A DNA stretch of 59,178 nt, the filler included, from Stramenopiles sp. TOSAG23-6 (lineage: Eukaryota), in the NCBI GenBank assembly GCA_900128565.1. It is 10 parts of 10 records of this genome, joined end to end, with 100 filler letters (N's around TTAATTAATTAA, not from the genome) between each part and the next. Parts side by side here need not be neighbours in the genome. Positions count along the whole stretch, not along the records: positions 29,672 to 35,495 come from LT636821.1; 9 more parts are not named here. One strand, written 5' to 3'. The notes under the pieces are model-generated. The model was not told where the DNA came from and made no database searches. It saw only the letters and a list, made by a program, of their open reading frames with translations. The first letter of the stretch is position 1. Every line of letters starts with the position of its first letter. Of this stretch, positions 4,201 through 50,979 are shown in pieces. The position numbers and the translations under genes were made by a program.

Positions 4201-5790
4201 CATTTTTTTCGCGTGAACAGAAAAAGGAAGAACATATCTTGATTCATCAAGCCTTGACGATGGAAGGGAGAGCAAAGTTACCCATTCGTTCTTCTCCTCT
4301 TCAGCAACATCTTCACTTATTGTTGATGGTACTGGTGAAACATCATTAGGCAAAGTTGGACTTCCATTGGCAAATAGGAGCGTATCAGAAGTCACTTCTC
4401 CACTATCACTGAGGTCTTCATTCAGCTCACAAACATCTTCAAGTCTCTCAGCAATACCATGAGTATACACGGTCGTTTCTGAAGAATCTACTACATGCAC
4501 AGATTCCCTCGTAACATCTTCGGCATGATGATCCGAAGCAAGAGGTGAAGTAGGAGTATTTCGAATTGTCCGCTGAACAGAAGATATTGGTCGAGCAGCT
4601 GAAATACGCATGCCAGTATTTGTTGAAGTTCTCACTGGTGTAACTGGCGTATCACTTTCTACATCGTTATCAGAAATTAGGCTGTCATCTAAATGCACAG
4701 ATAAATTTGAAGTATGAACGGCTAGTGTTTGATCTGATACACTTAAATCACTTATTCTTTCAGATAATCGGACCACTCCTTCATCATCCGCATTGCTAAC
4801 AGATTTTTGTTGAAGGTTACTATTATTGATTTCATTTTTACTATATTCAATATGAAGAGTAGCTGGCTTCCATCGTCCATGCCAATGTACCGAAATACTA
4901 CTGATTGCCACTCCATCATTATTCAAAATTGATTCCGAAACATTATTTTCTGACATTGTTGACACACTTTGGCCCTCACTATGGGTATCAATATCTACAT
5001 TTGCAGTATGGCTGTTCCTCGAACTCTTACTGGATGTCGAATTCCTGTTGTCTCTTTTAACAGGTATAATATTTGGTTTTGTTAGTAAAATACCCCAATA
5101 AGCATTTTCTGGCTGATAAATCGATCTCCAGTGACCATAATCTGATTGAAGCGCACGTTCTGGTCCATTTGAAGGACCAAAAGTCTCTGAAGAAAACGCA
5201 TCTGTTTCATCCGAATGAATCGCTTCATCTTCAGCTTGTCGCGGTGGGGCCCATTCAGAAAAGAGCTGCAATGGCTTAAGGCCGCGAAGCATATTCAATA
5301 AAACAGTTAATGCATGATCGATAGCCTTTGGATCCGTTTCTGCTAATGTTTTTCTGCACTCAGTTTCAGATGATTTGTCTTTGTTTTGATTTTTTCGGGT
5401 AGAAATCGATTTGGAAATATTATTACTGATACTATCTCCTACCTTTAGTGCATTAACAGCTTGGGGGTCAACAAGAGACGCGAAAAAGTATGTATTGTGA
5501 AAAAATATTTTTATTGATGAAATTTGTTAGGTACGAAATTTGGTACAAAAAAATAAATTTGAAATTGAAATGAAAACGTACATAGACCGACTTGTTTGAG
5601 TTGTTCGCTACCACAAGACTGTTTTATTTCAGTAGATTTTTCTGTATCTTCACTATTAGTCACGTTTGGAAAGGTATACTCACTGTTGTTATATTCATTT
5701 CTAGTAGGGTCAGCATCTTCGCTTCTTTGGCTAATGTGAGAAAAGTTATAACAGTCAATACTCTCTCTTGCCATGCGGCGTCTAGCGTAC
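1268..5790 (-). CDS. Large HERC/HECT-E3-like scaffold with SPRY and NPCBM domains (5' partial; exons 5790-5582, 5489-1934, 1838-1268)
   Basis: SPRY motifs (GKAAWEFEL, GDIVRCELDMDEGTLQYIVNG, FPAIAFY) and NPCBM motifs (VSFEIKGDGKSLW, HAVWVDPAL). The frame is continuous once introns 5490-5581 and 1839-1933 are removed. Confidence 0.6.
1839..1933 (-). other. Intron GT(AAGT)..AT, diverged copy
   Basis: Joins ORF 1930-5298 to ORF 1268-1813 as IPSP-I-QRLRL. The AG 4 nt downstream would cause a frameshift. Confidence 0.8.
5490..5581 (-). other. Family intron GT..AT
   Basis: Removal gives GL-Y-FFASLV, and the frame stays open into the 1122-aa ORF. Confidence 0.85.
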
Positions 5791-5964: not shown

Positions 5965-8483
5965 TCGCTGATCAACCTGATACTGAGATGAGAGCAAAGG
6001 TGTGCAAACGTGCTACTCAATTGCTTGAGTTAGAAAGTATTTTGTTTCAATGTTGTGAAACATGTACGTCTTTTGTTTCTATTCTTGTTGGTAGTGGTAC
6101 AGCCACACAAAGTTCAAATATTTCTAGTAGAAAAATTAATAATGAAAATGAATCTAAAACGTCAAAAGATAAGACAACATCGAAACAAAAAGAAAAGAAA
6201 AAATTAAAACAGAAATTAAAGTTACAAAAGCTTGTAAAGAATGTTCAACAAACAATTAGAAGCTATATGCGCCCTTTAAATCCCGGAGTAGCATCGTTGC
6301 TGACATATCCAACTTTGCAATTAAAAGGCGTAGATCTAGATGGTCGAACTGATCAAGTAGAACAGTTGTCCTTGCCAGATGCTGCAATATATTGCATAGT
6401 AGAAGATATTTATGCAAAAATTCGTTTTGTTTTAAAAAATGTCGTTTCTTTACGTTTTACTAAAAAGCCATCCTCTAATCGAATGAATGTTTCACAAGGC
6501 ATGTATTTAGATGGACATACATGTATGTTTTTTTTTTTTCAATTTCGAATTTATTTTTTTTCATACGAAATTTCGTACAATACATATCAAAGCTTATTAG
6601 AGTTTTATATTGATAAAATTGGCGTATTTTCGGCGTTGCGAGGTCATGTGGACAGAATAACTACTAAAATAGACAATTTAACAAGTTCTGATCCTCCTTC
6701 ACTTGAGGAAGAGGCTGAAGATTCCAGTGATCAACAGATTCAACAAAGTTGGAAATTATTACAACTCATTTTACGTATTCTGGCTGATTTATGCTCTAGT
6801 AAAATTTTATCCGTTTCTCTACAAGGCAAAGCACTTCAAAATAGAATTATCGAATCATTCGCTCGGGATCGTCCTGTAGTTCAGCAGCCAATACTTGAAC
6901 GTTTTCATCATTCATTTCATTTTTTTTGTCCAATTTTGTTTTCATACGAAATTTTGTACCTAACAAATATTAAAAAAAAACATATTTTTCACAGAACTTG
7001 CAAGTTCTAGTTCAATAAGAACGAAATGTTTTGATCTCATCATTGAAGTAGCTCGTTGTGGCTCGTCTGTCTCCAAAATCGAGAATGTGATGCCAGCTGT
7101 CGATTTATTGGCAGCTATTGTTACTATTGAAGATCGGGACAACAAAAATGAAAAATTTTCACAAGACAAGGATGATGAAGAAGAAGAGCTGAGTATTCGA
7201 TTAAGTCGATTCTGTGGCATTTGTCTTGAACGTGATTGGTCTCGAGGAATCAAAGGATTTAGTTACAAAAGTGCCCATATATATCGAATTTTGCAATTTC
7301 TATTTGAATTCTCTCACGAACCATGTATGTTTTCATCATGAATGTAAAATTTTTGTTTTGTACTAAATTTTTTACCTAACAAGATATTTGAATTTTAAAA
7401 TATTTTTTATTATACATTGGAACAAATTCAATATTTTGCAACAACTGTATTAATGAAATTATTAGAAACTGATGGTCAGCGTGGTCCAGTAGAATCTCAC
7501 CCAACCCTAACTAAATCAACATTTCCAGTTTATTTCAAGGCAGTGCTAACATGTCTCATTCGAACATTTTCGAAAACAATGAAAAAACCGTGTACCTCAA
7601 CTGAAGCCCGGGTGTCGAAATTGAACCGCATTCGAAAAGTCATAGTGTGTTTCAAAGCTCTGGCGGAAATGACCAAAGTGATTGATAAAGCGACAGTTTT
7701 AGTCCCAATGTTACGCGCAGGTAAAGAATTACTTGAAGCAATTCATAAACCAAAAACCCAAGATTTTCTTAAAAGTTGTATGCATTTACACCACACAGAG
7801 CTAAATGATATATTGAAAAAATTACAATCAGTGACACGTCAAATGCATGTATTTTTTTTTGTACGAAATTTTGTACCTAACGATTTTTTTTTTAAATCAG
7901 GCATTTCATTTTTTTTTTCGTACCAAACATTTCGTAATCTAACAAATACTTTTGACCAATTTAGGATTTGACATATTTTTTGACTATACATAACATCTGC
8001 TCGTACGGCAAAACTCAAAAAAATGCAGCTATAAGTAGTTTAATACCTGCTTGTAAAAAGCTTTTAGAACAACATCTTTTCAACACACAATTAATAATGG
8101 AAGCATCCGGATGCCTCGATGCTTGTACATTTTCAAATTTGAATTTCGAATGTATTTGTTTTTTTTTTCGTAAAAACAATTTTATTCCTAACAAAAACTA
8201 TCAAACTTCGGAAATATATTTTTATAATACATGGTGGGTAGGTAATTTAAAAAAGCGAAATATCGATGGCACTGAAATCTCTGATGATGATGAAGCGGAT
8301 TCCTCTTCAGTCCAAGAAAGTTCTCAATTTAGTCGAAAATCTTCAGGTTGCTGGGGCGATGAAGAGGTCAAAAATACGAATTCTTCGGAAGGTGGGGGCG
8401 ATGGTAATGACAGTGATGAAACTGAAAGTAGTAGCAGTAGTAGCAGCAGTAGTGATAGCGATGATAGTGATTCTTCAGAGTAA
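5965..8483 (+). CDS. FANCI: Fanconi anaemia group I protein, C-terminal part (5' partial, five internal family introns)
   Basis: The spliced product contains LQSVTRQMH|NICSYGK and GCLDA|WWVGNLKKRNIDGTEI, matching the FANCI C-terminal ..AFWLGNLKNRDLQGEEI motif. It ends in an acidic tail. Confidence 0.8.
6523..6585 (+). other. Internally deleted family intron GT..AT (63 nt, lacks CCTAAC)
   Basis: ACAT|GTATGTTTT..TACGAAATTTCGTACAATACAT|ATC; in frame and stop-free. Confidence 0.6.
6897..6999 (+). other. Family intron with GA..TT ends, or slid GT..AG variant (6901-6994)
   Basis: An intron is needed here to bridge the frameshift between ORFs 5988 and 7087. Both boundary choices are in frame. Confidence 0.7.
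7325..7417 (+). other. Family intron GT..AT
   Basis: Contains an in-frame TGA; removal gives HEP-L-EQIQ. Confidence 0.85.
7849..7991 (+). other. Family intron GT..AT (143 nt)
   Basis: Removal gives TRQMH|NICSYGK. Confidence 0.85.
8125..8232 (+). other. Family intron GT..AT
   Basis: Removal gives the FANCI motif CLDA-W-WVGNLK. Confidence 0.85.
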
Positions 8484-24489: not shown

Positions 24490-26241
24490 ATGCTCTACCA
24501 ACTCTCGGTACTCTTGCCTTTCGCCTTTATTTTAACTGTGAATGGTAGTACTGTAGAGTCCGCGATTCTACCACAGATTGTAACTGCGTGTGTAGTCACA
24601 CCTTTTTCTGGGGCTGATGAAGCCACAGTTGATGTAATGTTTGATATTCTCGAAAACTTCGTTGGATCTGTCCACGTGCATGCACCTGGCCGGTCGGTGC
24701 TTGTATATGACTTGGGCATCCCGATGCAACTTGCTATGCGTATTCGCAATCTCTGGAAAGGGGTGATACTTAAACCTTTTCCTTTTGAAGACTATCCTCC
24801 ACACGTTCGTGACCTATCTAATTTCGCTTGGAAACCGATAGCAATGCATCTGGCACTTTTACAGTACCCCTCGATTATCTATTTAGATTCAGGTTTCGAA
24901 CTCGTTGGAACTCTATTTCAAATCGATGCATCAATTCAGTCGAAAGGTCACTGGTTTGTCGCTGAAGAAGGTGCAGAAGAAGGTTCACACAAAAACTGGC
25001 TTGAATTAACACATCCAAATACCATTACGGAGGTTCAAAAGATTACTAAAACCTCTAAAACCATTGGTAGTAGTGGTAGTAGTGGCGGGATTCTGTGCTC
25101 AGGAGGATTACAAGGATACGTCCGAGAATCACGTGTATGTTTTATATGAATTTCTAATTGATTTTTTTTTCATACGAAATTTTGTACGTAACGATTTTTT
25201 TTCGAAATATTTTTTCACAATACGTGCTGCCCGGGATGTGTTACACAACGCTTTTCTCTGTGCACAACGCATCGCCTGCATCGCCTGCATCGCACCAACT
25301 GGGTCAAATTTGAATAATCATCGATATGACCAATCAGTTCTTTCAGCATTGATTACAATACAAGGATTTGGAAACGATATTCATCAAAGAAAGTCTTCAG
25401 GTAATCCCGATACTCCAAATATCGAGGCTTTCTATAAACGGCGCGATGGATATCCAAAGCCATATAGTGATTCTTTACAACTTCGGAGATCTATGGCAAT
25501 AGTGGTCCCCTTTATAGCTAAGCAATGGGAACGAGTACGAGAAGCTTTGGATACTTTGTTTCAACCTGAATATCAATGCAGAAATGATCGGTATATATAT
25601 GATCAAAACCATTACTTGTTAGGGTTGAATGAAACAAACACAAGAGCCACAAGAGTAGATCTCGTAGATCTTGTACTATATAATGATCAAATAATACCAG
25701 AAAAGTTATATACAGAAATCCAAAGTTTTCTTTCAGACACACGACACAAATGGCGACAATGTTTCATAAATGTAATCATAACTCATTCTGGAATGACAAG
25801 TAAAGAAAGTATGTTTTTCTTTTTTTTTCTTTTTCAATTTCGAGTATTATTTTTCATATGAAATTTCGTACCTAATGAAAACAAAAACAAAATAAAATAT
25901 TTTTTCACAATTCATGTGTTTATCCAGAAGGAACTTGCAAACAATTCTCATCCATTTTTGACGTAAAGCGTCAAAACCCAAAACAAACTTTAAAAATACG
26001 TGTATGTTTTATCTTTTTTTTTTTTGTATGAATTGTTGTTTGTACGAAATTTCGTACCTAACAAATTTTAATTTTTTTTTTGAAATATTTTTCCAAAATA
26101 CAAGGTAAAGATGGAAGTATTTCATTATTTATCAATAGTTTAAATATATTTTGGGAAAGATATACACATTTCATGTATCTTGAACCAGATACTAGACCGG
26201 TAAAATCTTTTTGGTTAGATGCTATTATAAGGGAAACGTAT
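24490..26241 (+). CDS. Secreted DUF1647/glycosyltransferase-like protein (four exons seen, 3' truncated)
   Basis: Signal peptide; VLVYDLGI, FPFEDYPPHV, FAWKPI, IIYLDSG, NHRYDQSVLSAL; later FMYLEPDTRPV. Confidence 0.65.
25135..25225 (+). other. Family intron GT..GT
   Basis: CGT|GTATGT..CAATACGT|GCT; joins ORFs 24490 and 25064 (RESR|AARD). Confidence 0.8.
25809..25915 (+). other. Family intron GT..AT
   Basis: Removal gives SKE-S-VYPEGTC. Confidence 0.75.
26002..26103 (+). other. Family intron GT..AA (alternative GT..AG 26000-26104 is also in frame)
   Basis: Removal gives LKIR|GKDGS. Confidence 0.7.
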
Positions 26242-26316
26242 GTACGTTTTCTTTTTGTTTTTCGTACGAAATTTCGTATGAAAAAAAAATCAATTAGAAA
26301 TTCATATAAAACATAC

Positions 26317-29197: not shown

Positions 29198-29510
29198 AAG
29201 AGTGAGTATTATCAAATACTATATATACTGTCCCAGTATTTTGAACAACTATAATTCCACTCCCTTCATCTTCCCCAGTACGATTAAAAGGTACTAAAAC
29301 TTTAGTTCTAACTTTTGTACCAATAATTGAAACGTCTTTTGTAGGGTTAGGGTTAGGGTTAGTGATGTGTTGTTCAATACCAAAACCAACATCACCGCCT
29401 TGGGTTGAAAATTTCCATTCTAAAATTGATTGTTTTTTATCAACACACAAAGGAATTTTTAACTGTTTCCCTGCATAGATACAAACTGATTTAGATTGCC
29501 AATGAAGTGA
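29198..29510 (-). CDS. GOLD-domain exon (SEC14-like), partial
   Basis: LEWKFSTQGGDVGFGI..GTVYIVFDNTHS; followed by a family-type donor GTATGTTTT at 29197. Confidence 0.6.
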
Positions 29511-29715: not shown

Positions 29716-30182
29716 AATGCCGGTGAAATGGTGTCGCTCTGGTGGTTTGAAATCGTATCGTGCCAGATCTGATAATGATACTGGCAAACGCTTGGCAGTT
29801 GTATTTGAAAAATATCTTGTATGTTTTCAAAATTGAATGTAAACCTAATTTTTTCATTTTTTTCGTACCAAAATTTGTACCTAACAAAAAAATGAATGTA
29901 AAATATTTGTTCATAATACATAATATAGGCGCTGGTATCCGAAAACAAGTTGTCAAGGATATTCAAAACTCTTTATTATCATTAAAAGCTATTGATAAAA
30001 AGTGCAGAGAAGTGCAGATGTATTTTTTATTTTTTTTTAATTTCGAAATTATTTTTTTCATACAAAATTTTGTACCTAACGTTTTTTTTGAAATATTTTT
30101 CCAAAATACATGGGAGATACTGGGAGGTTTGTACATTCATATTTGGAACAGAGAGAACTTCAAAGAGAAAAAGATATTTTAA
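29716..30182 (+). CDS. 3' exons of an unknown protein (29716-29818, 29922-30019, 30112-30182)
   Basis: The frame is open after removing two family introns. Confidence 0.55.
29819..29921 (+). other. Family intron GT..AT
   Basis: Removal gives EKYL|NIGAG. Confidence 0.8.
30020..30111 (+). other. Family intron GT..AT
   Basis: ATGTATTTT..AAAATACAT forms a perfect 9-bp inverted repeat across the ends. Confidence 0.8.
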
Positions 30183-30517
30183 AGACAAAGATAAAAGTAG
30201 CAAAAATGCGAATGAGTAGAAATTACTAATTAGTAAATATATAAAACTATAATTTTTATTCTAGTGTAGTTATTATCGATAATCTAATGTGTAAAAAAAA
30301 TATGTATAGTAGTAGTTTTTCTCTTATATTATGTTACCCGGTAATGAATGCTTTTGGAGGAAACAAAATGAGAAAAAACTACCGACCACCGATCACTTTT
30401 TTGGTATCAACCACTGGCTCTTTCACTCTCACACACACACACACACTACGTTTTATTGTATGTACTATTAGGCTATTATTAGTTATATTTACGTACTATA
30501 TTATTGACTTTTTAGAA

Positions 30518-31810
30518 ATGAAAAGAGTAGTATGTACATTAATTATTTCATTATATATTTGTATTACATGTACTGCTATGAATATGAAAGATATGAATAT
30601 GAAAGATATAATTAATCTAGTGTATAATACACCTGATATCATCAACGACAACAAAGAGTTGAAGACAGACCCATTTCTTACCGCCGTTGCTTCAATGAAG
30701 AAACCAAAGTTATCAAATGATAATGATTACTCCATTATTGTACGTGGAATCTTTCGACGGAATTATAAACTAGGAATTAGAATATTAAAATGGAGGGATA
30801 AAAATGGTTTNCCTGTCTTTGGATCTGTAGAGCCCTTCCTGCGTCGTATTCATGAATATGCTAAGCAATCACTATTGACTGTCTGGCGTGCATATTGGAT
30901 TGAACAAATAGAACAGAAGTTTTATCCTGTTAAAGCCCTTTTGCCTGCATTAAGGGATGATTATGATATTATGATGGCTGCTATGCGGTTTAGAGGGCGT
31001 CCATATGATAACTCATGGGCTTTACAGTATGCTTCAAAAGANTTAAGGGGAAATCGTGAGATGGTATCGANTGCTGTACAACATAATGGTTATCAAATTC
31101 AATTTGCTTTAGATGAATTGAAGGCTGATCGTGAGATTGTGTTAACTGCTGTGCGAGAAAGCGGCGGCGCAATCATTTATGCTTCAGAGGAGTTAAAGGG
31201 AGATCGTGAGATTATATTGACTGCAGTGCGAACAAGTAGATATGCTTTGAAGGAAGCTTCAGTAGAGTTGAAGAATGACCGCGGGATTGTATTGACTGCA
31301 GTACAACATCATCCTAGTTCACTTGATTATGCTTCAGAACAGTTAAAGAATGATCAGGAGATTGTAATGACTGCAATACGACAAAACGGTTATATGCTTC
31401 AATACGCTTCAGAGGATTTGCAGGGAGACCGTGAGTTTGTATTAGGTGCAATAGAAGAACATTACATTGCCTTTCGATTCGCTTCAAATGCATTGAAACA
31501 TGATCGTGACTTTGTTTTAGCTGCTGTAATTCAAAATGGAAATGTACTCATGTATGTCTCNGAAGATTTCAAAAACGATCATGAAATTGTACTCACTGCT
31601 GTACGACGTAACGGTGAATCTTGGCTGTATGTTTCAAGGAACATTTGTTGGGATCAAGAAATTATCTTATCTGCAGCAAAGAACTTGACTATTCAATTGT
31701 CTGGATGTACCAAATGCGTAATTATTGGTATATATAAGTATACTTTTATATTTCAAGCTTTGGGTATAGTAGTATTACTTTTACTTTTGGATCAAATTCA
31801 TCATTATTAA
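30518..31810 (+). CDS. DUF4116 repeat protein with signal peptide and C-terminal hydrophobic segment
   Basis: About ten repeats of ALQYASEELKxDREIVLTAV. Confidence 0.85.
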   Translation: MKRVVCTLIISLYICITCTAMNMKDMNMKDIINLVYNTPDIINDNKELKTDPFLTAVASMKKPKLSNDNDYSIIVRGIFRRNYKLGIRILKWRDKNGXPVFGSVEPFLRRIHEYAKQSLLTVWRAYWIEQIEQKFYPVKALLPALRDDYDIMMAAMRFRGRPYDNSWALQYASKXLRGNREMVSXAVQHNGYQIQFALDELKADREIVLTAVRESGGAIIYASEELKGDREIILTAVRTSRYALKEASVELKNDRGIVLTAVQHHPSSLDYASEQLKNDQEIVMTAIRQNGYMLQYASEDLQGDREFVLGAIEEHYIAFRFASNALKHDRDFVLAAVIQNGNVLMYVXEDFKNDHEIVLTAVRRNGESWLYVSRNICWDQEIILSAAKNLTIQLSGCTKCVIIGIYKYTFIFQALGIVVLLLLLDQIHHY

Positions 31811-33553: not shown

Positions 33554-34258
33554 TCAAGAAGGCATGGTCACGTTGGTTTGTACTTCAGGCGCTGCAAAAT
33601 AATATGATTGTCTGTTTTGTTTCATAGCGGCCTCTACGATAGTAGTGGAGGCACGGAGAGCAGGTGCTGCCCACTGAAGTGCCATGCCGTCATTTTTTAC
33701 TGCAGATAAAACTGTATTATAATCAGCTCTCAGTTTTTCATCGGCAAACTGTAAGGCACGACCATCAGCATTGACTGCAATCTGAACGAATGCCTTAAGC
33801 CCTTTTAATCCAGATATGTCAGATACATGTTGGAGTGCTAGAGGGTTCTTCATGATGGCATACCGAGCCAATGAGTTATAAATTGGAGTGTTGTAACTTA
33901 AGTCAAGAGGAACGTGGCGAAGCAAAAATCCATCTTTTTTCACCAACTCAGCAAAGTTGGATCCCCAAGTTACTACACCGCCACTAAAGGGATCCTTAAT
34001 CTCTTCCCCAGAAGAGCTTAGCAAAACTTTATTCGTCGGTATTTGATATAATATTTTCCGTTTTTTAAGCGGTAATTGAAGTGTGGGTGACGGTTGGTGC
34101 ACTTGCCCTTCTTCGGGGGATTCATATACTGAGGAGGGTAGCTTTCTTGCTTGCTTTCTTGATTCCTTTAAAGATTGCAAAATTGGTGCTCTTCGGCGTA
34201 AGTCTGATGTAGATGCACGTATGACTGCAGCATAGCTGAGTAATAGAAATATTCTCAT
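33554..34258 (-). CDS. DUF4116 repeat protein
   Basis: DGRALQFADEKLRADYNTVLSAVKNDGMALQWA; signal-like start MRIFLLL. Confidence 0.7.
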   Translation of the reverse strand: MRIFLLLSYAAVIRASTSDLRRRAPILQSLKESRKQARKLPSSVYESPEEGQVHQPSPTLQLPLKKRKILYQIPTNKVLLSSSGEEIKDPFSGGVVTWGSNFAELVKKDGFLLRHVPLDLSYNTPIYNSLARYAIMKNPLALQHVSDISGLKGLKAFVQIAVNADGRALQFADEKLRADYNTVLSAVKNDGMALQWAAPALRASTTIVEAAMKQNRQSYYFAAPEVQTNVTMPS

Positions 34259-34554
34259 AGCTACCAGAATCAAACCAAAATAGGAAGAATGGGATAGCGG
34301 ATGGATGGCCAATGGATTTGCCATCATCATTTGCTACCGCTTCTCTTGGGATCAATTTGAAATTTTCTTTGGCAAAAACGGCAAAAACGGAAAGTCCCCG
34401 AAACATCAATCAAATCGAACGGAACGGTCATTTATTTGGAATCGATCAAAAAACTTTTGGAAAAAAAAAGGACTTAAAATAATTAAAATTCACCAATTAA
34501 GTTTCAATTCACAAAGTGGTTTTGTATTTGCTTTTCACCAGAAAAAAATCCAAA

Positions 34555-38272: not shown

Positions 38273-39139
38273 ATGTCAAACGTTGGATCTCAAAAATTAA
38301 AGAGGTCTCATGATGATCTTCAACCTTTTATTGACCTAACGAATATCTCAGAAAAGTCAAAAAAGAAGCATAAGAAGACTTCTTCTGTCATTAACTTGTG
38401 TGACGATATCGTTGATACAAATACTCTCTCTAATAAAAAGGTCTCGTATGCTGGGAGCTTGGTGTATGAGGAGACCAAAGAAAACACTTTTCATTTAACT
38501 TGGGGTGATATGAAAGCTTTAATTGTAGAGGCTGGGGGAAAAACAACAGAAAACGTCTCCTCTAAGACTGACATCTTAATTATGGGTGACACGGAACGTA
38601 TGTGGTCGCTGAAAGTTGCTTTTAAATCCAAGTCAAGTTTCAAAGAAGCAACTGAAGCCCCATCACCAGATAAATGGCTCAATTCGAAGAAACGAATTAA
38701 CATTGAAAAATTCAAAAATGAAAAAGGTGGTAAACTGGAAATTATTCCATTTCTTGACTTTATCTCTAAATACAATCTAGAGAGTAAGGTTCAAGATGAA
38801 CTTCGATGGGCACATACGTTTTTATCATGAATTTTAAATTTATTATTTTTTTCATACGACATTTTGTACCTAACAATTGTTTTTCCTAAAAATATTTTTC
38901 AAAATACACGATATCTCGGTAAGAGCTCTTTCCAGACACCAGGTTGGCGTCGCTCCTCATCTTCACTTCTTTCAAAGAGTCTAATGTGGCATACGGGGCC
39001 AAAAGAAGGTCAATTTGTGAAAAATTATACTGAGATTGGTATGAAAGGACGCTTGAGATTAGAACGAGAGAAGTGCAACATAAATATTTTACAGGCTGCA
39101 ATGAATTATGCATCGAGTCTCGATACAAAAACAGCTTGA
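38273..39139 (+). CDS. BRCT-domain protein (exons 38273-38813, 38910-39139)
   Basis: LSNKKVSYAGSL..MKALIVEAGGKTTENVSSKTDILIMG, a ligase/RFC1-type BRCT. Confidence 0.7.
38814..38909 (+). other. Family intron AT..AC
   Basis: GCAC|ATACGTTTT..AAAATACAC|GAT; contains an in-frame TGA; removal gives RWA-R-YLGK. Confidence 0.8.
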
Positions 39140-39298: not shown

Positions 39299-41359
39299 TT
39301 ATTTATTTATCTTTTTCTGGATTGTAGGTAGTGTAGATAGTGTACTATTATTTTCTGTATTTCCAGCCTCTTCTTCGTTTGACACATCATCTTCATCATC
39401 TTCTTCTTCTGAGTCGTTATCTGATGATTCCGAGGAGAGATCCGCCGACATATCTGAAACAGAAGATGAACTTGAAGAGGACGAAGTCGACACTCTTAAA
39501 GTAGATAAAAGTCTAGATTTTGAAGATGCTACTAATGGTGATAGGGCGCTCTCAGAAGTCATCTTCACCGAATTAGCTGCATTTGGATTAAAATTACCTT
39601 CGGTATACGAAAAATCTGTACTAAATTTCGTCTGTCTGTCATCAAATAAACCAAACTTTTTATTGTGAGCACTGAAAGAGTCATGTTGACTCTTTGCATC
39701 GGTGGTTGTATTGTCAGATGACATATATATATTAGTATTCTTCAATTTAGCATCAATTTTATGGAATATAGGCATTGTTTTTATCGCATCTCTTAATTCA
39801 CTCGGATCGATAAAATTCTTATTTTCCATTTTTGAAGTATTTTGAATATTTGGAAGTCTCGTTTGGTATCGATGACATGAGCTCACCATCGGTGCCATAA
39901 CTATATGAACTCTATGTTTTCGAATGATTTTATTCACTTCTGTACGACTAAGCATATGAGCAGTACATATTTCATCCATGCATCGCGAACCATCACATGA
40001 AGCAACAACAGCAGCGACAGAAAGATTTGCTTTTCTTCCAGCATATTTAACTCGATTAGACTCCTCTTGAATGACCCTCTTAATATCACCATCACGAGCA
40101 CCTTGTGCCATTCCTAGTCGAAATCTTCTATATCCCCTGCGTGCACGATCTAAATTGTCTCTTTGAGCTGGCGTAAGTCTACTACTTAAAACTGTCATCG
40201 GTTCTCCAAGTGGTTTGGTACACTTTTTTGTGGTTTCAAAATTAACACTTTTATTTGATATTTTTGGTGTTCCAAATCTATCATTCTGATTCAATAAAAC
40301 TTCAGTTTTATTTGTATCACCAACAACAACATGTTTATCTATATTATTTGTAGAACTTTTAGAACCTCTGTTACGAGAAATTTCCGTCATTCCAGATACA
40401 CTATTTAAATGAATATTAGATATTTCTTCTGTTTCAGTTGGATCCAAAGATGTTTCGTTTTGTACATTCTGATCAACTACTTCATTCATGGATGATATTT
40501 TTGTATTATTTTGGTCACTGCTCAATCCTGCTTCAGTTGCTTCAGCAAGTGTAGCTATAGCAGCAACACCTACAGCATGTGGACATACAGGGATTTCGTG
40601 TATACGCTGCAAGATTCCATGCAAAACTCCAAATAAAATAAGTCTCCTCTCATTAACATTCAAGTCAAATTTGGGAGTGTTTATAAAAGGTTCATTTTCT
40701 CGATGTCCTGAAACAAAATCTGATGCAATAGTTGAATGAAAATGTCCACCAGTACCATTTTCATTTGACGTCTGTGGCCTGATGTGAATATAACGACGAC
40801 AAATTTGACCGACTCGAATATCGCCCGTGAAAAAACTATACAACTCAAAAACTTGGGCTGGTGTTGGAAGAGGGCGATTAGCATTTTTTGAAACAAATAA
40901 ACAACAATCTCGTTGAAAATTACTGTCTTCTTTTGGACCACCCATGTATTTTGGAAAAATATTTCAAAAAAAAAAAACTAAAATTTGTTAGGTAAAAAAT
41001 TTTTATAAAAAAAAAAATCGAATTTGAAAAAAAATAAAACATACATCATACAAGTACGACCTGGACATAAAATACCAATCCTTGGGGTGACAACATATAT
41101 ATTCGAATATTGAAATGCATCACGTATTTTGGGAAAATATTTCAAAAAAAAATCGTTAGGTACAAAATTTCGTATGAAAAAAAAATCGGATTTGAAAAAA
41201 AATAAAACATACACACATTGCGATAGTATCTAAATGCAATAACTGACTTAAAATACGTTTTACATATGATATATGCACACCAGATGATTCTGATATTTGT
41301 CGTACAATGCGTTTTCCATCTATATGAGGTAATAATTTTTGCAGTGTCAAGTCCGCATC
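39299..41359 (-). CDS. NPRL2: GATOR1 subunit NPRL2/Npr2 (5' partial; exons 41359-41213, 41121-41045, 40943-39299)
   Basis: DLTLQKLLPHIDG..VRQIS, C|DAFQYSNIY, NERRLILFGVLHGILQRIHEIP, DGSRCMDEIC. Confidence 0.85.
40944..41044 (-). other. Family intron GT..AT
   Basis: Phase-2 join into ORF 39299-40945. Confidence 0.85.
41122..41212 (-). other. Family intron GT..GT
   Basis: TGT|GTATGT..AAATACGT|GAT restores the DxFQYSNxY motif. Confidence 0.85.
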
Positions 41360-44018: not shown

Positions 44019-44988
44019 TTATTTAGAAAAATAGATTGGAATTCCACTAATTGTCTTCGTTAATTTGTTACTATTTTTTCTATTATTTTTTTGAACTTTT
44101 GTATTTGTTAATAATGATAATGCAACACTATAAAGCCCTTGATGGACTATACCAAGGCGTTTTTTCTTTACTGACTCAAATATTAACTATATTGTTGAAC
44201 AATATTTTACATTTACAATTCGTTAAAAAATTGAAAAAAAAAAATTTACATTTTTAAAATTGAAAAAAAAAAATTTTAATTTTTAAAATTGAAAAAAAAA
44301 AAAAAAATGAAATTCATAATAAAAACAAACATGCCATTCATCAGGACATTCTTTGCTAGTCAAAGCAGCTAAAAATGAAGTAGCACTAGCAGTAGCAATA
44401 TCATCCATTTGAGTTGTCCAAACTTTATTTGAAAGTCTTTTTTTCCTTAATTTCGGTCCTTCGATTTATTGATGAAAAATATTTTCAATTTGTTTTTTGT
44501 TAGGTACAAAATTTACTATGAAAAAAAAAAAAATATTATTGTAACCCTAACCCTAACATACAGTTTCATTTTCTGAAAAAGTAAATTTCGCCATTCTTGT
44601 GGAATTTCTTTATCTTTTAAACATTTGTATAATTGTTTTCTTTGTACTTTAATTTCTGATTTGCTATTCATTCTTAATCGAGTTTCTTTTGCTCTTTGTA
44701 CTTCTTTTTTAATCCAAGTTAACTCGACATTTATTTTGGAAATATATTTCAAAAAAAAAATCGTTAGGTACAAAATTTCGTACGAAAAAAAAATCATACA
44801 AAAAAAATAAAACATACATATGAAATTTTTTGACTTTTTTTTTGATTCTTATTTTGTTTTTCTTCAAAATCATTCAAATTATGATCTTCATTATTAAGCA
44901 ATTTGGTATTATTTAAATGAATATCGTTAATCTTATTATTAAATGTTAACCATACTATACTTCTATACGCTAAATGTATATCTAAGTC
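44019..44988 (-). CDS. 3' exons of an unknown protein (44988-44818, 44728-44562, 44463-44331, 44186-44019)
   Basis: Phases are consistent and the frame is open across three family introns. Confidence 0.55.
44187..44330 (-). other. Family intron GT(TTGT)..AG
   Basis: Ends ..CAATATAG; removal gives DEWH|LIFES. Confidence 0.65.
44464..44561 (-). other. Family intron GT..AT containing (TTAGGG)2
   Basis: GTATGTTAGGGTTAGGGTTAC..AATAAAT. Confidence 0.7.
44729..44817 (-). other. Family intron GT..AT
   Basis: Removal gives KISY|VELTW. Confidence 0.75.
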
Positions 44989-47227: not shown

Positions 47228-47493
47228 ATGTTTTTTGGAAAAATATTTCAAAATTTTTTTACAAAAAAAAAAATTTGTTAGGTACAAAATTTTTATAAAA
47301 AAATAAAAAAAATATTTACTAAAAAAAAAAAAAAAAAANNNNNNNNNNNNNNNNNNNNNNNNNNNNNNNNNNNNNNNNNNNNTTAATTAATTAANNNNNN
47401 NNNNNNNNNNNNNNNNNNNNNNNNNNNNNNNNNNNNNNGTACGAAATTTTGTACCTAACGAATTTTTTTTTGAAATATTTTTCCAAAATACAT

Positions 47494-48284
47494 TTTATCC
47501 AAGGACCTTGTCGAATATATAGTGTTCAATGAAAAATTTCTTGTGAATTCGCTTTGGGATGATGAAGATGACGGAGCTCATGAAGACTCTGTCATTGGTC
47601 TATGGATGTTTGCTATTGGCGTTAAAGTTGAGCATGAAAGTCGATTTAGTATGTATGTTTTTTTTTTTTTTTCAATTTTGAGTTTTTTTTTCGTACGAAA
47701 TTTTGTACCTAACAAATTAAAAAAAAAATTGAAATATTTTTCCAAAATACATATTAAGTTATTGTCGTTTTGAATCTATTGCATTATTTGATGTTCCAAT
47801 GAAATGCATGGAATCTGTGGTGTATCAAATGCAAAACAAAGATACGATGTGTGCGCCATGCATACGGTATCACACAATTGAAAAAGCTGATGTGGAATTA
47901 AAAAGTATTACAGCTCACAGTACTTCACTTAGTGTAACGACACCAAATTTACAAATGTTGCATATTCAAATTGGATTACTAAATACGCAAGGGACAATGT
48001 ATGCATTACTTTTAGATTTGAAATCTGCAACAGAAAAATTTTCTGCTGCTGCACTTGCATCACCAGAGACTGAATCAGTTGCACAAAATTTACGATTTGT
48101 TGAACTTTGGCTTCGAAAATTAGAAAACATCGAAAATGAAGAAACGAAACCTTCAATTTGTAGTGCAGTAGAATTCTGTGTTACAGCTGTGGTAAATGCA
48201 TTTGAGAATGCGATTGCAAGGCGTGCAAAACTCATTAGCGTTCCTCATTATCAGAAACTAGAAGACTTGGCTATTAAGTTTTGA
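47494..48284 (+). CDS. 3' exons of an unknown protein (47494-47652, 47753-48284)
   Basis: ORFs 47522 and 47799 are joined by intron 47653-47752. Confidence 0.55.
47653..47752 (+). other. Family intron GT..AT
   Basis: Removal gives RFS-I-LSYCRF, in frame with ORF 47799. Confidence 0.8.
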
Positions 48285-48344
48285 CATTATTATCGTCAAA
48301 ATAGATGAGTTTTGACATTATTATTGTCAAAATAGTTGAGTCGA

Positions 48345-48668
48345 TTAAACAGTGACTATTTTATTATGAATACGGCGCCAAGCACTAAATTTCCCCTTAA
48401 AACGCAATGTACCATCACCCCGAAGGCGTTCTGCATGAATATCAAAGTATTCTTGGAGTTTTTCTCTGGATTTTACGACATATGTCGCAACCATTTTCTT
48501 TTGAGGTGAGCTTTCTTCAACTTTAGGAATTTCCTCAACATTGGCAAGTTGAGCTGAGATAAAACCATCTATTGTTAGCATTTCCTTCATATGCGGAATA
48601 AGCCAGTCAGTATATTCTTTAACAATGTCTCTGTCTATAGACAAGTTAACCTCATAGATCACAGACAT
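48345..48668 (-). CDS. DUF4286 family protein
   Basis: VIYEVNLSID..WLIPHMKEMLTIDGF..LQEYFDIHAERLRGDG..RF. Confidence 0.75.
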   Translation of the reverse strand: MSVIYEVNLSIDRDIVKEYTDWLIPHMKEMLTIDGFISAQLANVEEIPKVEESSPQKKMVATYVVKSREKLQEYFDIHAERLRGDGTLRFKGKFSAWRRIHNKIVTV

Positions 48669-48895
48669 TGCAAAATGCACTTTGGTAATAGATAATTATT
48701 ATTACAAGGTACTTGAGAGTGTCCGTATCTACATTCATCATCAAAGTTGAGTCGAGTCAAAAAACGTCAAAAAATGAATTTGGAATTTAGGAGAGATTTT
48801 TTTCAGTTACACGACGTTACACAACTACTTTTACATAAAAAAGTGAAGCAAGTGTCTCTCACAGGTTGAGAAATTTATTATTTTAGCATTTCAAT

Positions 48896-50979
48896 ATGTC
48901 AGAAGAAGCCGAAACCGAAGTTATTGAAGAGTTTTTGTTGACTGACGATGAAGATGAAGAGTTTAATTATGATGATGTTCCAGATCATACGTTTAGCTCT
49001 GATGAAGACGATGATGAAGACCTCGAAACCGCATTAAGGTCACTGAACCGAGGTGAGAAGAAAAACTTTACTGATGATGACAGTGCATCAATACAAGTTC
49101 TATCAGAAACAGCTGTGAAACCATCAGTTGTCGACGATTTCATTCGCAATTTTTTAATTAAAATGGGCATGATGAGAGCTTTAGAAAGTTTTAATACAGA
49201 GTGGTATCAATTGCAAATGCGTAAAAATGTAAATAAAACGGATTTGGAAGATGTTCCTGATATTTATTTACAGAATCAAAAACTGAATAGGCAAATACAA
49301 GAAATGAGCAATGAAGTTTCTCAAATGAAAATTGTTGCTGATAAAGCCCAAGGAACGTGGGATAAGTTCAGAAAAGAACGCGACTTTCACCGCATGCATC
49401 ATGTACGTTTTCATTATAAATTTCATTTTTTTTTCATACGAAATTTTGTACCTAACGATTTTTTTTTAACCAAAAAAAAATAGTTTTTCACAATACATAA
49501 GCGAGTTGTACAGGAAAAGGATAAACTCGTCAAAAATATACGACGCTTAAAAAAACATTATGCTGGTTATGAACCTGCACTCAAATCAATACGTCAGAAA
49601 TACGAGCAAATAACTAAAGCTAAAATGTTGCTCACTCTTGAACGAGATCGACTTTTAGGTAAAAACAAAACTTTAGAGGAAGCTCTTTTGAATGTGACTC
49701 AAAATTCTGCGAAGGGCAAAAAACGCCAGGAGAATAAGAATAAAGGTCCTAAAAGTACTAGTAGAGCTACAAATGTAAAGAAAACGACAAAAAAAGCAAA
49801 AGATAGAAAAGGAAAAGTTGATTCACGAATCCCAACAAATCCTGTGAATAATCCGTATGTTAATATGGAATTCGATGCGAGTGATGCGGAAAATTTTTGC
49901 CTTCAAAAAACGTTTAAAGGCCACCTTAATCCTGTTGCTGCCATGGCGTTTCATCCAAAGAAACCTATTCTTGCAACTGTTAGTGATGATGAGACGTGGA
50001 AAATGTGGTCTGCTCCTAACGGTGAGTTAATAATGAGTGGCGAGGGTCATAAAGATTGGTTAGCCGGAGTCGATTTTCATCCAAGTGGCTCTCAGTTAGC
50101 AACTTGCTCTGGAGACAGTGATGTAAAATTATGGGATTTCGTTGCCGCTAGCTGCTCTCATACTTTCACAGAACATACACAAGCTGTGTGGGATGTGTCA
50201 TATCACCATGCAGGAGATTTTATTGCGTCATGTTCAATGGATCATACTTCGAAACTTTGGGATTTACACACACAAAAGTGTAGGCAAACATTTAGAGGTC
50301 ATGTATGTTTTATTTTTCATAGCATTTTTTTTAATCTACACTTTTTTTCATACGAAATTTTGTACCTAACGAATTTTTTACTAAAAAAAAAATATTTGTT
50401 CACAATACATGTAGATTCTGTGAATTCTATAATTTTCCAACCATTCACAAATAATATTTGTACTGCTAGTGGTGACAAAACTGTCTCAATTTGGGACATT
50501 CGATCTGGATTGTGTGTACAAACATTTTATGGGCATATGAATTCCTGTAATTCTGTTGCCTTTACATTAAACGGACAGACTATTGCGTCGTGTGTACGTT
50601 TTTATTTCAAATTTCGATTTTTTTTTTTTTTCGTATGAAATTTTGTACCTAACAAAATTTTAATTTTTTTTTCAAATATTTTTTCACAATATATGATGCA
50701 GATGGAATTGTCAAGTTTTGGGACATACGAACGATTCAACAAATTGGTGAAATGGACGCAGGACCACACCCTGCAAATAAAGTCGATTTTGATAGATCTG
50801 GTGAAATTCTTGCTGTGGCATCTGATGATGCGACTATTAAAATATTTGAGACAAAAACACTCAAATATGTAAAAGAATTACAAGGTCATGAAGACGCGGT
50901 CCAAGCAGTTCTTTTTGATCCAACAGGCAAATTTTTAGTTTCTGCTGGATCTGACTGTACTTTCCGTATCTGGTCCTAA
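48896..50979 (+). CDS. SPAG16: Flagellar central-pair WD40 protein PF20/SPAG16 (exons 48896-49402, 49499-50302, 50411-50593, 50695-50979)
   Basis: VVDDFIRNFLIKMGM..FNTEWY, KERDFHRMHH|KRVVQEK, and seven WD40 repeats. Confidence 0.92.
49403..49498 (+). other. Family intron GT..AT
   Basis: Restores RMHHKRVVQEK. Confidence 0.9.
50303..50410 (+). other. Family intron GT..AT
   Basis: Restores FRGHVDSVN. The AG 4 nt downstream would cause a frameshift. Confidence 0.9.
50594..50694 (+). other. Family intron GT..AT
   Basis: Restores IASCDADGIVKFWD. Confidence 0.9.

What the first reader, a model, noticed from the sequence alone, without database searches (positions are those of the whole stretch)
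30018..30111. Terminal inverted repeats plus a 2-bp direct repeat suggest a MITE/introner origin
Seen: the ends read AT|GTAT(G)TTTT ... AAAATAC-AT, a perfect 9-bp inverted repeat in this copy. The exon dinucleotide before the intron is AT in 22 of 41 copies and ends in T in 33 of 41. In four copies with a non-AT end, the end equals the upstream dinucleotide (GT/GT at 25135 and 41122, AC/AC at 38814, TT/TT at 6897). Inference: a GTA..TAC element inserts with a 2-bp target duplication, and the duplicated dinucleotide becomes the 3' splice site, giving scarless removal. Pairing of the ends could also bring the splice sites together in RNA.
Basis: partly seen in the sequence, partly recalled or inferred. 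Interest (0 to 1): 0.75.

Follow-up and report, generated by a model that had tools for sequence, protein, structure and literature searches.

The report
Mobile GT-AT introns, matching U1 RNA
In an uncultured marine protist, a short copied element has become the main kind of intron: a two-base duplication made at insertion supplies its unusual AT end, and the cell's U1 splicing RNA is altered so that it pairs with the element's start.

Summary
The flagged 94 bases are one copy of a ~100-nt intron family in a MAST-3 stramenopile. The 2-bp duplication holds: in 168 copies, 16 of 31 non-AT ends equal their own upstream dinucleotide (shuffle mean 1.9, maximum 8), none matches as an inverted repeat, and the excess stops at 2 bp. 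Removal from GT to AT restores the frame in 95 of 104 copies; RNA contigs show two exact joins, one excluding the AT-AC register. The inverted repeat is overstated: the 9 bp include the duplicated AT, this copy is the only 1 of 168 with 7 perfect bp, and 3-4 bp is typical. No transposase with these ends was found, so 'introner' is supported and 'MITE' is not shown. New here: the only U1 found, in a U5-U2-U1-U4 cluster, begins AAACGUACAUG, the complement of CAU|GUACGUUU. The scan noted these GT-AT introns before on other pieces of this genome; none of the notes I saw mentions this U1.

The parts
30018..30019 (+). Upstream exon dinucleotide AT: left copy of the 2-bp duplication; exon positions -2/-1 that the native U1 can pair with
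30020..30111 (+). Flagged copy of the intron family, 92 nt, GT...AT; lacks G+5
   Evidence: splicing of this copy inferred, not seen in RNA
30020..30026 (+). 5' arm GTATTTT (family consensus GTAYGTTTT, the donor site)
30059..30075 (+). Quasi-palindromic core (family consensus GTACGAAATTTTGTAC)
   Evidence: hairpin only weakly predicted, median pair probability 0.1
30076..30080 (+). Branch-point-like CTAAC (putative branch A at 30079), complementary to the unchanged U2 box
   Evidence: branch use inferred
30103..30109 (+). 3' arm AAAATAC
30110..30111 (+). Terminal AT: right copy of the duplication and inferred 3' splice dinucleotide
29819..29921 (+). Neighbouring copy in the same gene (TT upstream, AT end)
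30112..30229 (+). Downstream exon of the host gene if the flagged copy is removed (open to a TAA); gene of unknown family
   Evidence: read by hand; no Pfam hit for the overlapping ORFs
48896..50979 (+). SPAG16/PF20-like WD40 gene with three family introns; test gene
49403..49498 (+). Copy (AT/AT) whose removal is seen in RNA contigs of runs X1 and X3
50303..50410 (+). Copy (AT/AT); junction gap-free in 120 of 120 homologues; no bridging RNA contig among those listed
50594..50694 (+). Discordant copy (GT upstream, AT end); an RNA contig keeps exon G50592 and so excludes the AT-AC register
25135..25225 (+). Copy with GT/GT duplication
41122..41212 (-). Copy with GT/GT duplication
38814..38909 (+). 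Copy with AC/AC duplication; starts AT, not GT
6897..6999 (+). Copy with TT/TT duplication; starts GA; degenerate 3' arm
20749..20858 (-). Copy with AT upstream and AG end (discordant)
26002..26103 (+). Copy with GT upstream and AA end (discordant)
12860..12968 (+). Copy (AT/AT) in a SNF2-type helicase gene; removal restores RVH/RIGQ
47653..47752 (+). Copy (AT/AT); no bridging RNA contig among those listed

Best explanation
An introner family. A ~100-nt element (GTAYGTTTT ... core and CTAAC branch ... AAAATAC) was copied to thousands of sites. At insertion a staggered 2-nt cut, mostly at (C)AT(G), duplicated the target dinucleotide (shown statistically). The element brings the donor and branch point; the right-hand duplicate becomes the last two bases of the intron, so the major spliceosome removes GT...AT without a scar (shown by frame, homology and two RNA joins). 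Ends that began as GT or TT are tolerated and some later changed to AT (inferred). The single U1 found has three changes in its pairing arm that complement the element's donor and the left-hand duplicate in the exon (shown as sequence; use and direction of causation inferred). The acceptor is AG-independent and probably set by the branch point plus the element's conserved 3' arm (inferred). The mobilising enzyme is not identified: a cut-and-paste transposase acting in trans is my first guess (about 0.45), capture at a 2-nt-overhang break my second.
For: Frame kept open +-120 nt in 95 of 104 copies by GT..NN removal against 9-10 of 104 for the other two phases, 16 retained, 11 antisense. Joins restore ILADE/MGLGKT, DNAGG/MM, RVH/RIGQ. 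SPAG16 junctions gap-free in 117, 120 and 119 of 120 homologues. RNA joins at 49403-49498 (X1, X3) and 50594-50694 (X1, no mismatches). 16 of 31 non-AT ends equal the upstream dinucleotide; GT/GT 6 and TT/TT 7 with no GT/TT cross (Fisher 1.6e-5 and 2.8e-7); no excess at -3, -4, +1, +2. Concordance falls with divergence, 45, 42, 31 of 56. Variants at +4, +10 and 3' -8 are linked (P 3e-8 to 2e-11), giving two subfamilies of 95 and 73. Phases 46/25/30 equal background AT phases 45/26/29%. One paralogue lacks the intron. Cys before the GT/AT junction in 80 of 120 homologues, and stop codons in 2 of 42 discordant copies if the end dinucleotide were exonic, point to ends changing toward AT after insertion. 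Native U1 arm pairs better than the Rfam consensus arm in 162 of 168 copies, median -9.5 against -1.9 kcal/mol.
Against: No autonomous element found; only 2 transposase families were searched. Perfect terminal repeat 3-4 bp in most copies. 50 of 168 copies are discordant; nearest-neighbour identity peaks at 96% with none identical in a 4% sample of the genome, so no current activity is shown. Non-AT matches do not rise in the least diverged third (5, 6, 5 per tercile). No antisense-only copy and only about 3 of 166 outside coding-like sequence. No local hopping. RNA evidence is assembled contigs of depth 5-11 from one study for two introns, with no DNA run, so an intron-free allele is not excluded. 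Intron positions in relatives were not tested. The U1 scores 54.1 bits, under the Rfam cut-off of 69.5, and a second, canonical U1 could be missing from an incomplete assembly.
Confidence: 0.72

Rival explanations
1. Same introns and same 2-bp duplication, but not a transposase product: a copy of the intron (DNA, or reverse-transcribed RNA) is captured at double-strand breaks with 2-nt overhangs, such as Spo11-type breaks, or enters by a transcript-coupled route. This differs from the best explanation only in the mobilising step.
For: All frame-testable copies lie sense in genes, none antisense-only; terminal repeat minimal; no partner; target symmetric, C at -3 40% against 17% background and G at +1 47% against 26%. 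Spo11 leaves 2-nt 5' overhangs; yeast prefers C next to the overhang, mouse an AT centre (PMC11922745, passages).
Against: Sense bias is expected from selection alone, and unspliced copies would decay. TSDs occur as often in introner families without TIRs (PMC9860276, passages). The C and G are also what U1 G11 and an ordinary acceptor context favour. No reverse transcriptase or Spo11 was searched.
Confidence: 0.2
2. No duplication: both ATs are independent splice signals (exon CAT chosen by the altered U1, YAT in place of YAG), and the likeness of the introns comes from selection or gene conversion on old introns.
For: The U1 arm does complement exon CAT; CAT|GT..YAT|G mirrors the canonical CAG|GT..YAG|G; 102 of 118 concordant copies are AT/AT.
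Against: Cannot give the locus-specific GT/GT, TT/TT, AC/AC matches (16 against 1.9), the linked subfamily variants, phases that follow AT frequency or likeness along the whole length (up to 96%).
Confidence: 0.05
3. The introns are AT-AC type, cut two bases upstream (AT GTAT...TAC), by the minor spliceosome or a shifted register.
For: For AT/AT copies both registers give the same mRNA ('both' = 3).
Against: The RNA contig at the GT/AT copy keeps exon G50592; that register makes stop codons in 2 of 42 discordant copies and replaces a Cys kept in 80 of 120 homologues; the upstream AT is less conserved (112 of 168) than the end AT (137 of 168); U1 aligns in the GT register; no U6atac found.
Confidence: 0.02
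4. Pairing of the two ends in the RNA brings the splice sites together and fixes the acceptor, as proposed for euglenid and Amoebophrya introns.
For: The flagged copy folds with its ends paired; 7 bp with one bulge in 42 of 168 copies; an AG lies between branch point and end (or at the end) in 45 of 168 copies, so first-AG scanning does not explain the choice.
Against: Fold not clearly better than shuffles (z -1.67; other four copies -1.06 to +0.89); ends pair in only 42%; TT/TT and many degenerate ends cannot pair; the 5' arm is fully complementary to U1, which would compete.
Confidence: 0.12

Closest known systems
Introners that carry the donor and take the acceptor from a target-site duplication (Micromonas pusilla IE1, Chrysochromulina; PMC9860276 passages and supplement search; PMC11282704 main text)
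   Same: Repeated intron family, locus-specific duplication, scarless removal, donor carried by the element, aquatic host.
   Different: Duplication of 2 bp instead of 3-4; the co-opted acceptor is AT (also GT, TT), not AG; terminal repeat only 3-4 bp.
Non-canonical introns of Fritillaria borealis and F. pellucida (PMC13326754, abstract, sections 21 and 26 part 1)
   Same: YAY triplet upstream of the donor and YAY as the last three bases; 3' AT is the commonest end; MITE-like origin proposed; major spliceosome.
   Different: There the 5' ends are heterogeneous (AG/AC, AG/AT), both U1 versions have identical 5' ends, and U2AF is duplicated. Here the donor is a uniform GTAYGT, one family dominates, the U1 arm is changed, and one U2AF65 was found.
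Coevolved U1 snRNAs of Entamoeba (AACAAAC), Mastigamoeba (ACGUAC) and Physarum (ACAUAC) (bioRxiv 10.1101/2022.06.08.495308, abstract and passages)
   Same: U1 pairing arm changed to match an atypical donor; the ACGUAC core is the same as in Mastigamoeba, the extra 5' A as in Entamoeba.
   Different: Here a further change at U1 position 9 (C to A) reads the exon -1 base, which is the duplicated target; the donors belong to a mobile family. No such exon-side change appears in the passages I read.
Amoebophrya introner elements (PMC7789003, passages)
   Same: Repeated non-canonical introns with direct and inverted repeats in a marine protist.
   Different: There 8-20 nt inverted and 3-5 nt direct repeats, no clear splice signature, U1 not found; here a strong donor, branch motif and matching U1.
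ISL2EU DNA transposons (PMC4482050, passages)
   Same: 2-bp AT duplication.
   Different: ISL2EU targets A|AT|T, TIRs start GG, partner has THAP/DDE plus YqaJ, reported in animals; here the target is C|AT|G and ends start GT.

Membership tests
Introner | Family of similar introns at unrelated gene positions | tested here: met
   168 non-redundant copies in 907 kb, identity up to 96%, two subfamilies
Introner | Removed from mRNA | tested here: met
   95 of 104 by frame; 2 joins in RNA contigs; homology
Introner | Locus-specific target-site duplication | tested here: met
   16 of 31 against 1.9, confined to 2 bp
Introner | Recent gain: positions absent in relatives or polymorphic | tested here: inconclusive
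   One empty paralogous site among 168 junction queries; no relative's genome or DNA run available
MITE | Clear terminal inverted repeat (>=6 nt in PMC9860276; usually >=10, recalled) | tested here: not met
   Perfect 3-4 bp in 102 of 168, 7 bp in 1; 7 bp with one bulge in 42
MITE | Autonomous partner with the same ends | tested here: inconclusive
   Not at 2 DDE_Tnp_4 and 2 DDE_3 genes; other superfamilies not searched; no long element among orphan ends in the sampled sequence
MITE | Copies in both orientations and between genes | tested here: not met
   0 antisense-only; about 3 of 166 in non-coding-like flanks; one truncated copy beside a stop codon in L098
ISL2EU | AT duplication | tested here: met
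ISL2EU | A|AT|T target and GG-starting TIR | tested here: not met
   C and G flanks enriched, ends start GT
U2-type intron | GT donor, CTRAY branch, intact U2/U5/U6 | tested here: met
   GT in 151 of 168; CTAAC; U2 GUAGUA, U5 loop, U6 ACAGAGA intact
U2-type intron | AG acceptor | tested here: not met
   AG end in 4 of 168, AT in 137
U12-type intron | RTATCCT donor (recalled) and minor snRNAs | tested here: not met
   Donor GTAYGTTTT; no U6atac at E<=0.1; U11, U12, U4atac not searched
Fritillaria-type non-canonical introns | YAY upstream and YAY at the 3' end | tested here: met
   Y before AT in 69 of 101 AT-upstream copies; -3 is C or T
Fritillaria-type non-canonical introns | Duplicated, divergent U2AF subunits | tested here: inconclusive
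   One U2AF65; no U2AF35-like finger pair among 15 zf-CCCH matches, 5 loci translated; assembly incomplete
U1 snRNA (Rfam RF00003) | Full-length fold with Sm site, among the other snRNA genes | tested here: met
   Model positions 1-166, E 8e-12, 54.1 bits (below the 69.5 cut-off), between U2 and U4
U1 snRNA (Rfam RF00003) | Expressed and used at these donors | not testable with these tools

The most novel reading that the evidence does not exclude
A mobile element has taken over this lineage's splicing code: it supplies nearly all introns, the housekeeping U1 was rewritten to read both the element's donor and the exon-side copy of its insertion scar, and the acceptor is chosen without AG (passing over AGs after the branch point), perhaps without U2AF35.
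Probability: 0.35. Interest if true: 0.9.

Novelty: new variant of a known kind. Interest (0 to 1): 0.78.

Why it matters
It joins three things known separately (introners that borrow a splice site from their duplication, non-AG acceptors on a genome scale, and U1 compensation) in one compact system with a single intron family, so the order of events in spliceosome-intron coevolution becomes testable: sister MAST-3 genomes should show whether the U1 change or the element came first. A uniform GT-AT intron with a nearly standard Prp8, U2, U5 and U6 is a simple substrate for asking how a 3' splice site is chosen without AG. Practically, a public model of the test gene (P0121) is wrong at all three junctions, so gene sets of this plankton lineage need re-annotation.

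Tried and rejected
Terminal repeat extending through the AT: rejected, non-AT pairs are direct, 0 inverted. Longer duplication (CAT or ATG): no excess at -3 or +1. Covarying palindromic target: none. Altered U6 segment pairing with the intron's 5' or 3' arm: no better than the Rfam-like segment. Core hairpin: median pair probability 0.1. Local hopping: neighbours no more alike than distant copies, 123 near pairs. Transposase partners: the Plant_tran/DDE_Tnp_4 element on C2432 has GGCC ends and TAA flanks; C4153 and two DDE_3 genes show no GTA..TAC ends. A class of ordinary GT-AG introns: 5 candidates, the same level as the YAC control (5), mostly family-like; the search was crude. Core pattern in viral contigs: 0; in metagenome contigs: 1 locus, L112, whose flanks were not among the 40 of 1781 candidates scored in G000. 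U2-U1 spacing pattern in viral contigs: 5 hits, taken as chance and not opened. UHM query for U2AF35 found only itself. C13 against C14: near-identical, no presence/absence difference. RNA runs held only 6-8% of the sampled words; no listed contig bridged the copies at 47653 and 50303. My first two 3'-end matrices were contaminated by the subterminal AAATAT and were rebuilt. Rows dropped before the counts: of 316 core candidates 191 passed both end thresholds and 168 were non-redundant.

Full report
Setting. The window is ten contigs of about 5.8 kb joined by N linkers. They belong to a 21.1-Mb eukaryotic assembly in 6236 contigs. Its 18S rRNA holds the exact target of the MAST-3 probe printed in PMC4234645 (passages), so the host is very probably a MAST-3 stramenopile. 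I sampled 907 kb (window, parts of contigs C1-C30, other loci), about 4% of the assembly, biased to long contigs.

Observation. The copy has lost G+5, present in 159 of 168 copies, and is the only one of 168 with a 7-bp perfect repeat; 102 have 3-4 bp; with G+5 bulged 42 reach 7 bp. The four non-AT matches cited are present.

Anatomy. Copies are about 70-180 nt, median 99: GTAYGTTTT, a T-rich stretch, a quasi-palindromic core, CTAAC, then AAATATTTTTCCAAAATAC and two free bases; branch A to end 33-49 nt. I set both boundaries from internal positions only, so the two flanking dinucleotides were free variables. Density is 196 in 769 kb of long contigs and 38 in 58 kb of the window, which extrapolates to roughly 5,000-14,000 copies.

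They are introns cut GT..AT. Removing GT through the two free bases keeps a frame open for 120 nt on both sides in 95 of 104 copies; the other phases give 9 and 10, retention 16, the antisense join 11. Joins rebuild conserved motifs (motif identity recalled). The SPAG16-like gene aligns without gaps at its three junctions in 117, 120 and 119 of 120 homologues, while the public model P0121 is wrong at all three. Contigs of seawater metatranscriptomes skip 96 nt at 49403-49498 (runs X1 and X3, one study) and 101 nt at 50594-50694 (X1, 359 nt, no mismatch). The second copy has GT upstream and AT at its end; the contig keeps exon G50592, which excludes the AT-AC register and leaves GT..AT or a one-base shift. 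Limits: two of the four introns in that stretch, depth 5-11, no DNA run.

The duplication is real and 2 bp long. Among 168 copies, 31 end in something other than AT; 16 equal their own upstream dinucleotide, against 1.9 on average and at most 8 in 20,000 shuffles; none is the reverse complement; positions -3, -4, +1, +2 show no excess. GT/GT 6 and TT/TT 7 occur with no GT/TT cross, and 8 of 14 non-AT ends still match in the strict subset of 99. This is the locus-specific test used in PMC9860276 (passages). Concordance falls from 45 to 42 to 31 of 56 with divergence from the consensus, although the non-AT matches themselves stay at 5, 6, 5. Of 50 discordant copies 35 have a non-AT exon end and an AT intron end. 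Two would give stop codons if AT had been the exon sequence, and the SPAG16 GT sits in a Cys codon kept in 80 of 120 homologues, so some ends appear to have moved to AT after insertion.

Copied, not merely homogenised. Variants at +4, +10 and 3' -8 are linked (P 3e-8 to 2e-11), defining two subfamilies; nearest neighbours reach 96% but none is identical. Phases follow the background of AT dinucleotides. A kinase paralogue lacks the intron. I could not test positions in relatives.

MITE is not shown. Two DDE_Tnp_4 genes (one seen on four redundant contigs) and two DDE_3 genes exist, none with GTA..TAC ends; one is a Harbinger-like element with GGCC ends and TAA flanks. Other superfamilies were not searched. 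151 of 166 testable copies are sense-open, none antisense-only. ISL2EU shares the AT duplication but not target or ends (PMC4482050, passages). Capture at 2-nt-overhang breaks remains open (PMC11922745, passages).

The splicing machinery. Contig C1146 (duplicated as C6122) carries U5, U2, U1 and U4 in tandem. U2's branch box, U5's loop and U6's ACAGAGA (C3740) are standard. The U1, the only one found at E<=1 (41 of 253 candidates scored), begins AAACGUACAUG where the Rfam consensus has AUACUUACCUG. The three changes face intron +7, intron +4 and exon -1, and complement them in 99%, 97% (with G-U) and 87% of copies; the consensus arm does so in 1-4%. So the exon-side AT is both a duplication and a U1 site; AT/AT copies alone prove nothing, and the direction of causation is unknown. 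U1 compensation is described in Entamoeba, Mastigamoeba (same ACGUAC core) and Physarum (bioRxiv 10.1101/2022.06.08.495308, abstract and passages); I saw no exon-side change there. On the acceptor side, an AG lies after the branch point in 45 of 168 copies (4 of them at the end), so first-AG scanning is not the rule. One U2AF65 was found; no U2AF35-like gene among 15 zinc-finger matches, which is weak in an incomplete assembly. No U6atac. Prp8 is close to human, with 13 private changes at columns >=95% conserved against a median of 0 and 95th percentile of 9 in 119 homologues; their meaning is unknown.

End pairing. The flagged copy folds with its ends paired (z -1.67), one other of five partly so; 42% of copies reach three expected pairs. 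It may assist, but the same bases are the U1 and U6 site.

Prior art. Closest are acceptor-borrowing introners (PMC9860276; PMC11282704, parts 1-3 of 5 read, covering the main text), Fritillaria's YAY..YAY introns (PMC13326754, abstract and two sections) and Amoebophrya (PMC7789003, passages). Not found in print in this library: MAST-3 with genome, intron and spliceosom (0 papers); marine stramenopiles with introner terms (0); GT-AT intron terms (7 papers, listings only, none on a genome-wide class); U1 compensation with snRNA cluster terms (0); two searches listed no MAST paper. In the PMC9860276 supplement 'Stramenopiles' appeared only in the input table, but the file is cut when stored. Subscription papers are not searched, and the preprint's supplements are closed. 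Earlier notes of this scan report the GT-AT introns on many other pieces of this genome; none of those shown, nor a sequence look-up, mentions this U1.

Verdict. Introner with a 2-bp duplication that supplies a non-AG acceptor: supported. MITE and end pairing: not shown. The matching U1 raises the finding from a curiosity to a testable case of element-spliceosome coevolution. New variant of a known kind; interest 0.78.

Noticed in passing
L092:9-645 (G000:C1146): Tandem U5-U2-U1-U4 snRNA cluster; U1 has an altered pairing arm and also altered loops I and II.
   Followed up: yes
L094:953-1056 (-): U6 keeps ACAGAGA but reads GGAUAAUAU upstream instead of GGAACGAU; no extra pairing with the introns found.
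   Followed up: partly
window 26242-26316: Two 5' halves of the element fused head to head at the palindromic core, between convergent frames; recombination product or amplification chimera.
   Followed up: no
window 47439-50736, run X2: Summed contig depth up to 2,800-4,800 on element bins against 1-2.5 on exons in the library not labelled polyA; many copies as DNA or pre-mRNA, or stable excised introns.
   Followed up: no
17 of 168 copies, e.g. window 38814 and 6897: Non-GT starts (AT 8, GC 6, GA 2, GG 1); several still restore the frame, so the donor's first bases are also relaxed.
   Followed up: partly
L098 (G000:C2432): Complete Harbinger-like element (Plant_tran transposase plus convergent ORF, GGCC ends, TAA flanks) with a truncated copy of the intron core between its two genes.
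   Followed up: partly
L106 (G000:C84): Prp8 has a cluster of private changes near human residues 1246-1254 and at 1451; no family intron in the roughly 1,800 codons read.
   Followed up: partly
G000:C13 1-3200 and C18 26400-28500: Nine or more copies within 2-3 kb of single genes, while an 8,092-codon frame on C19 has one; strongly uneven density.
   Followed up: no
window 29347-29363 and inside the copy near 44511-44550 (-): Short TTAGGG runs between genes and inside introns.
   Followed up: no
G000:C2, C4, C27; C13/C14; C2432/2433/2439/2440: Contigs folded back on themselves or nearly identical to each other, and many contigs ending inside an element: assembly redundancy that inflates copy counts.
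   Followed up: partly
L112:2464-2565 (-): A family copy with CAT|GTATG...TAC AT|G in another public assembly; its flanks were not matched in G000.
   Followed up: partly
window 30245-31810 and 33554-34333: Two intronless DUF4116-repeat genes next to the flagged gene.
   Followed up: no
L030 (G000:C137): A second, lower-scoring small-subunit rRNA match, not opened (organelle or contaminant).
   Followed up: no
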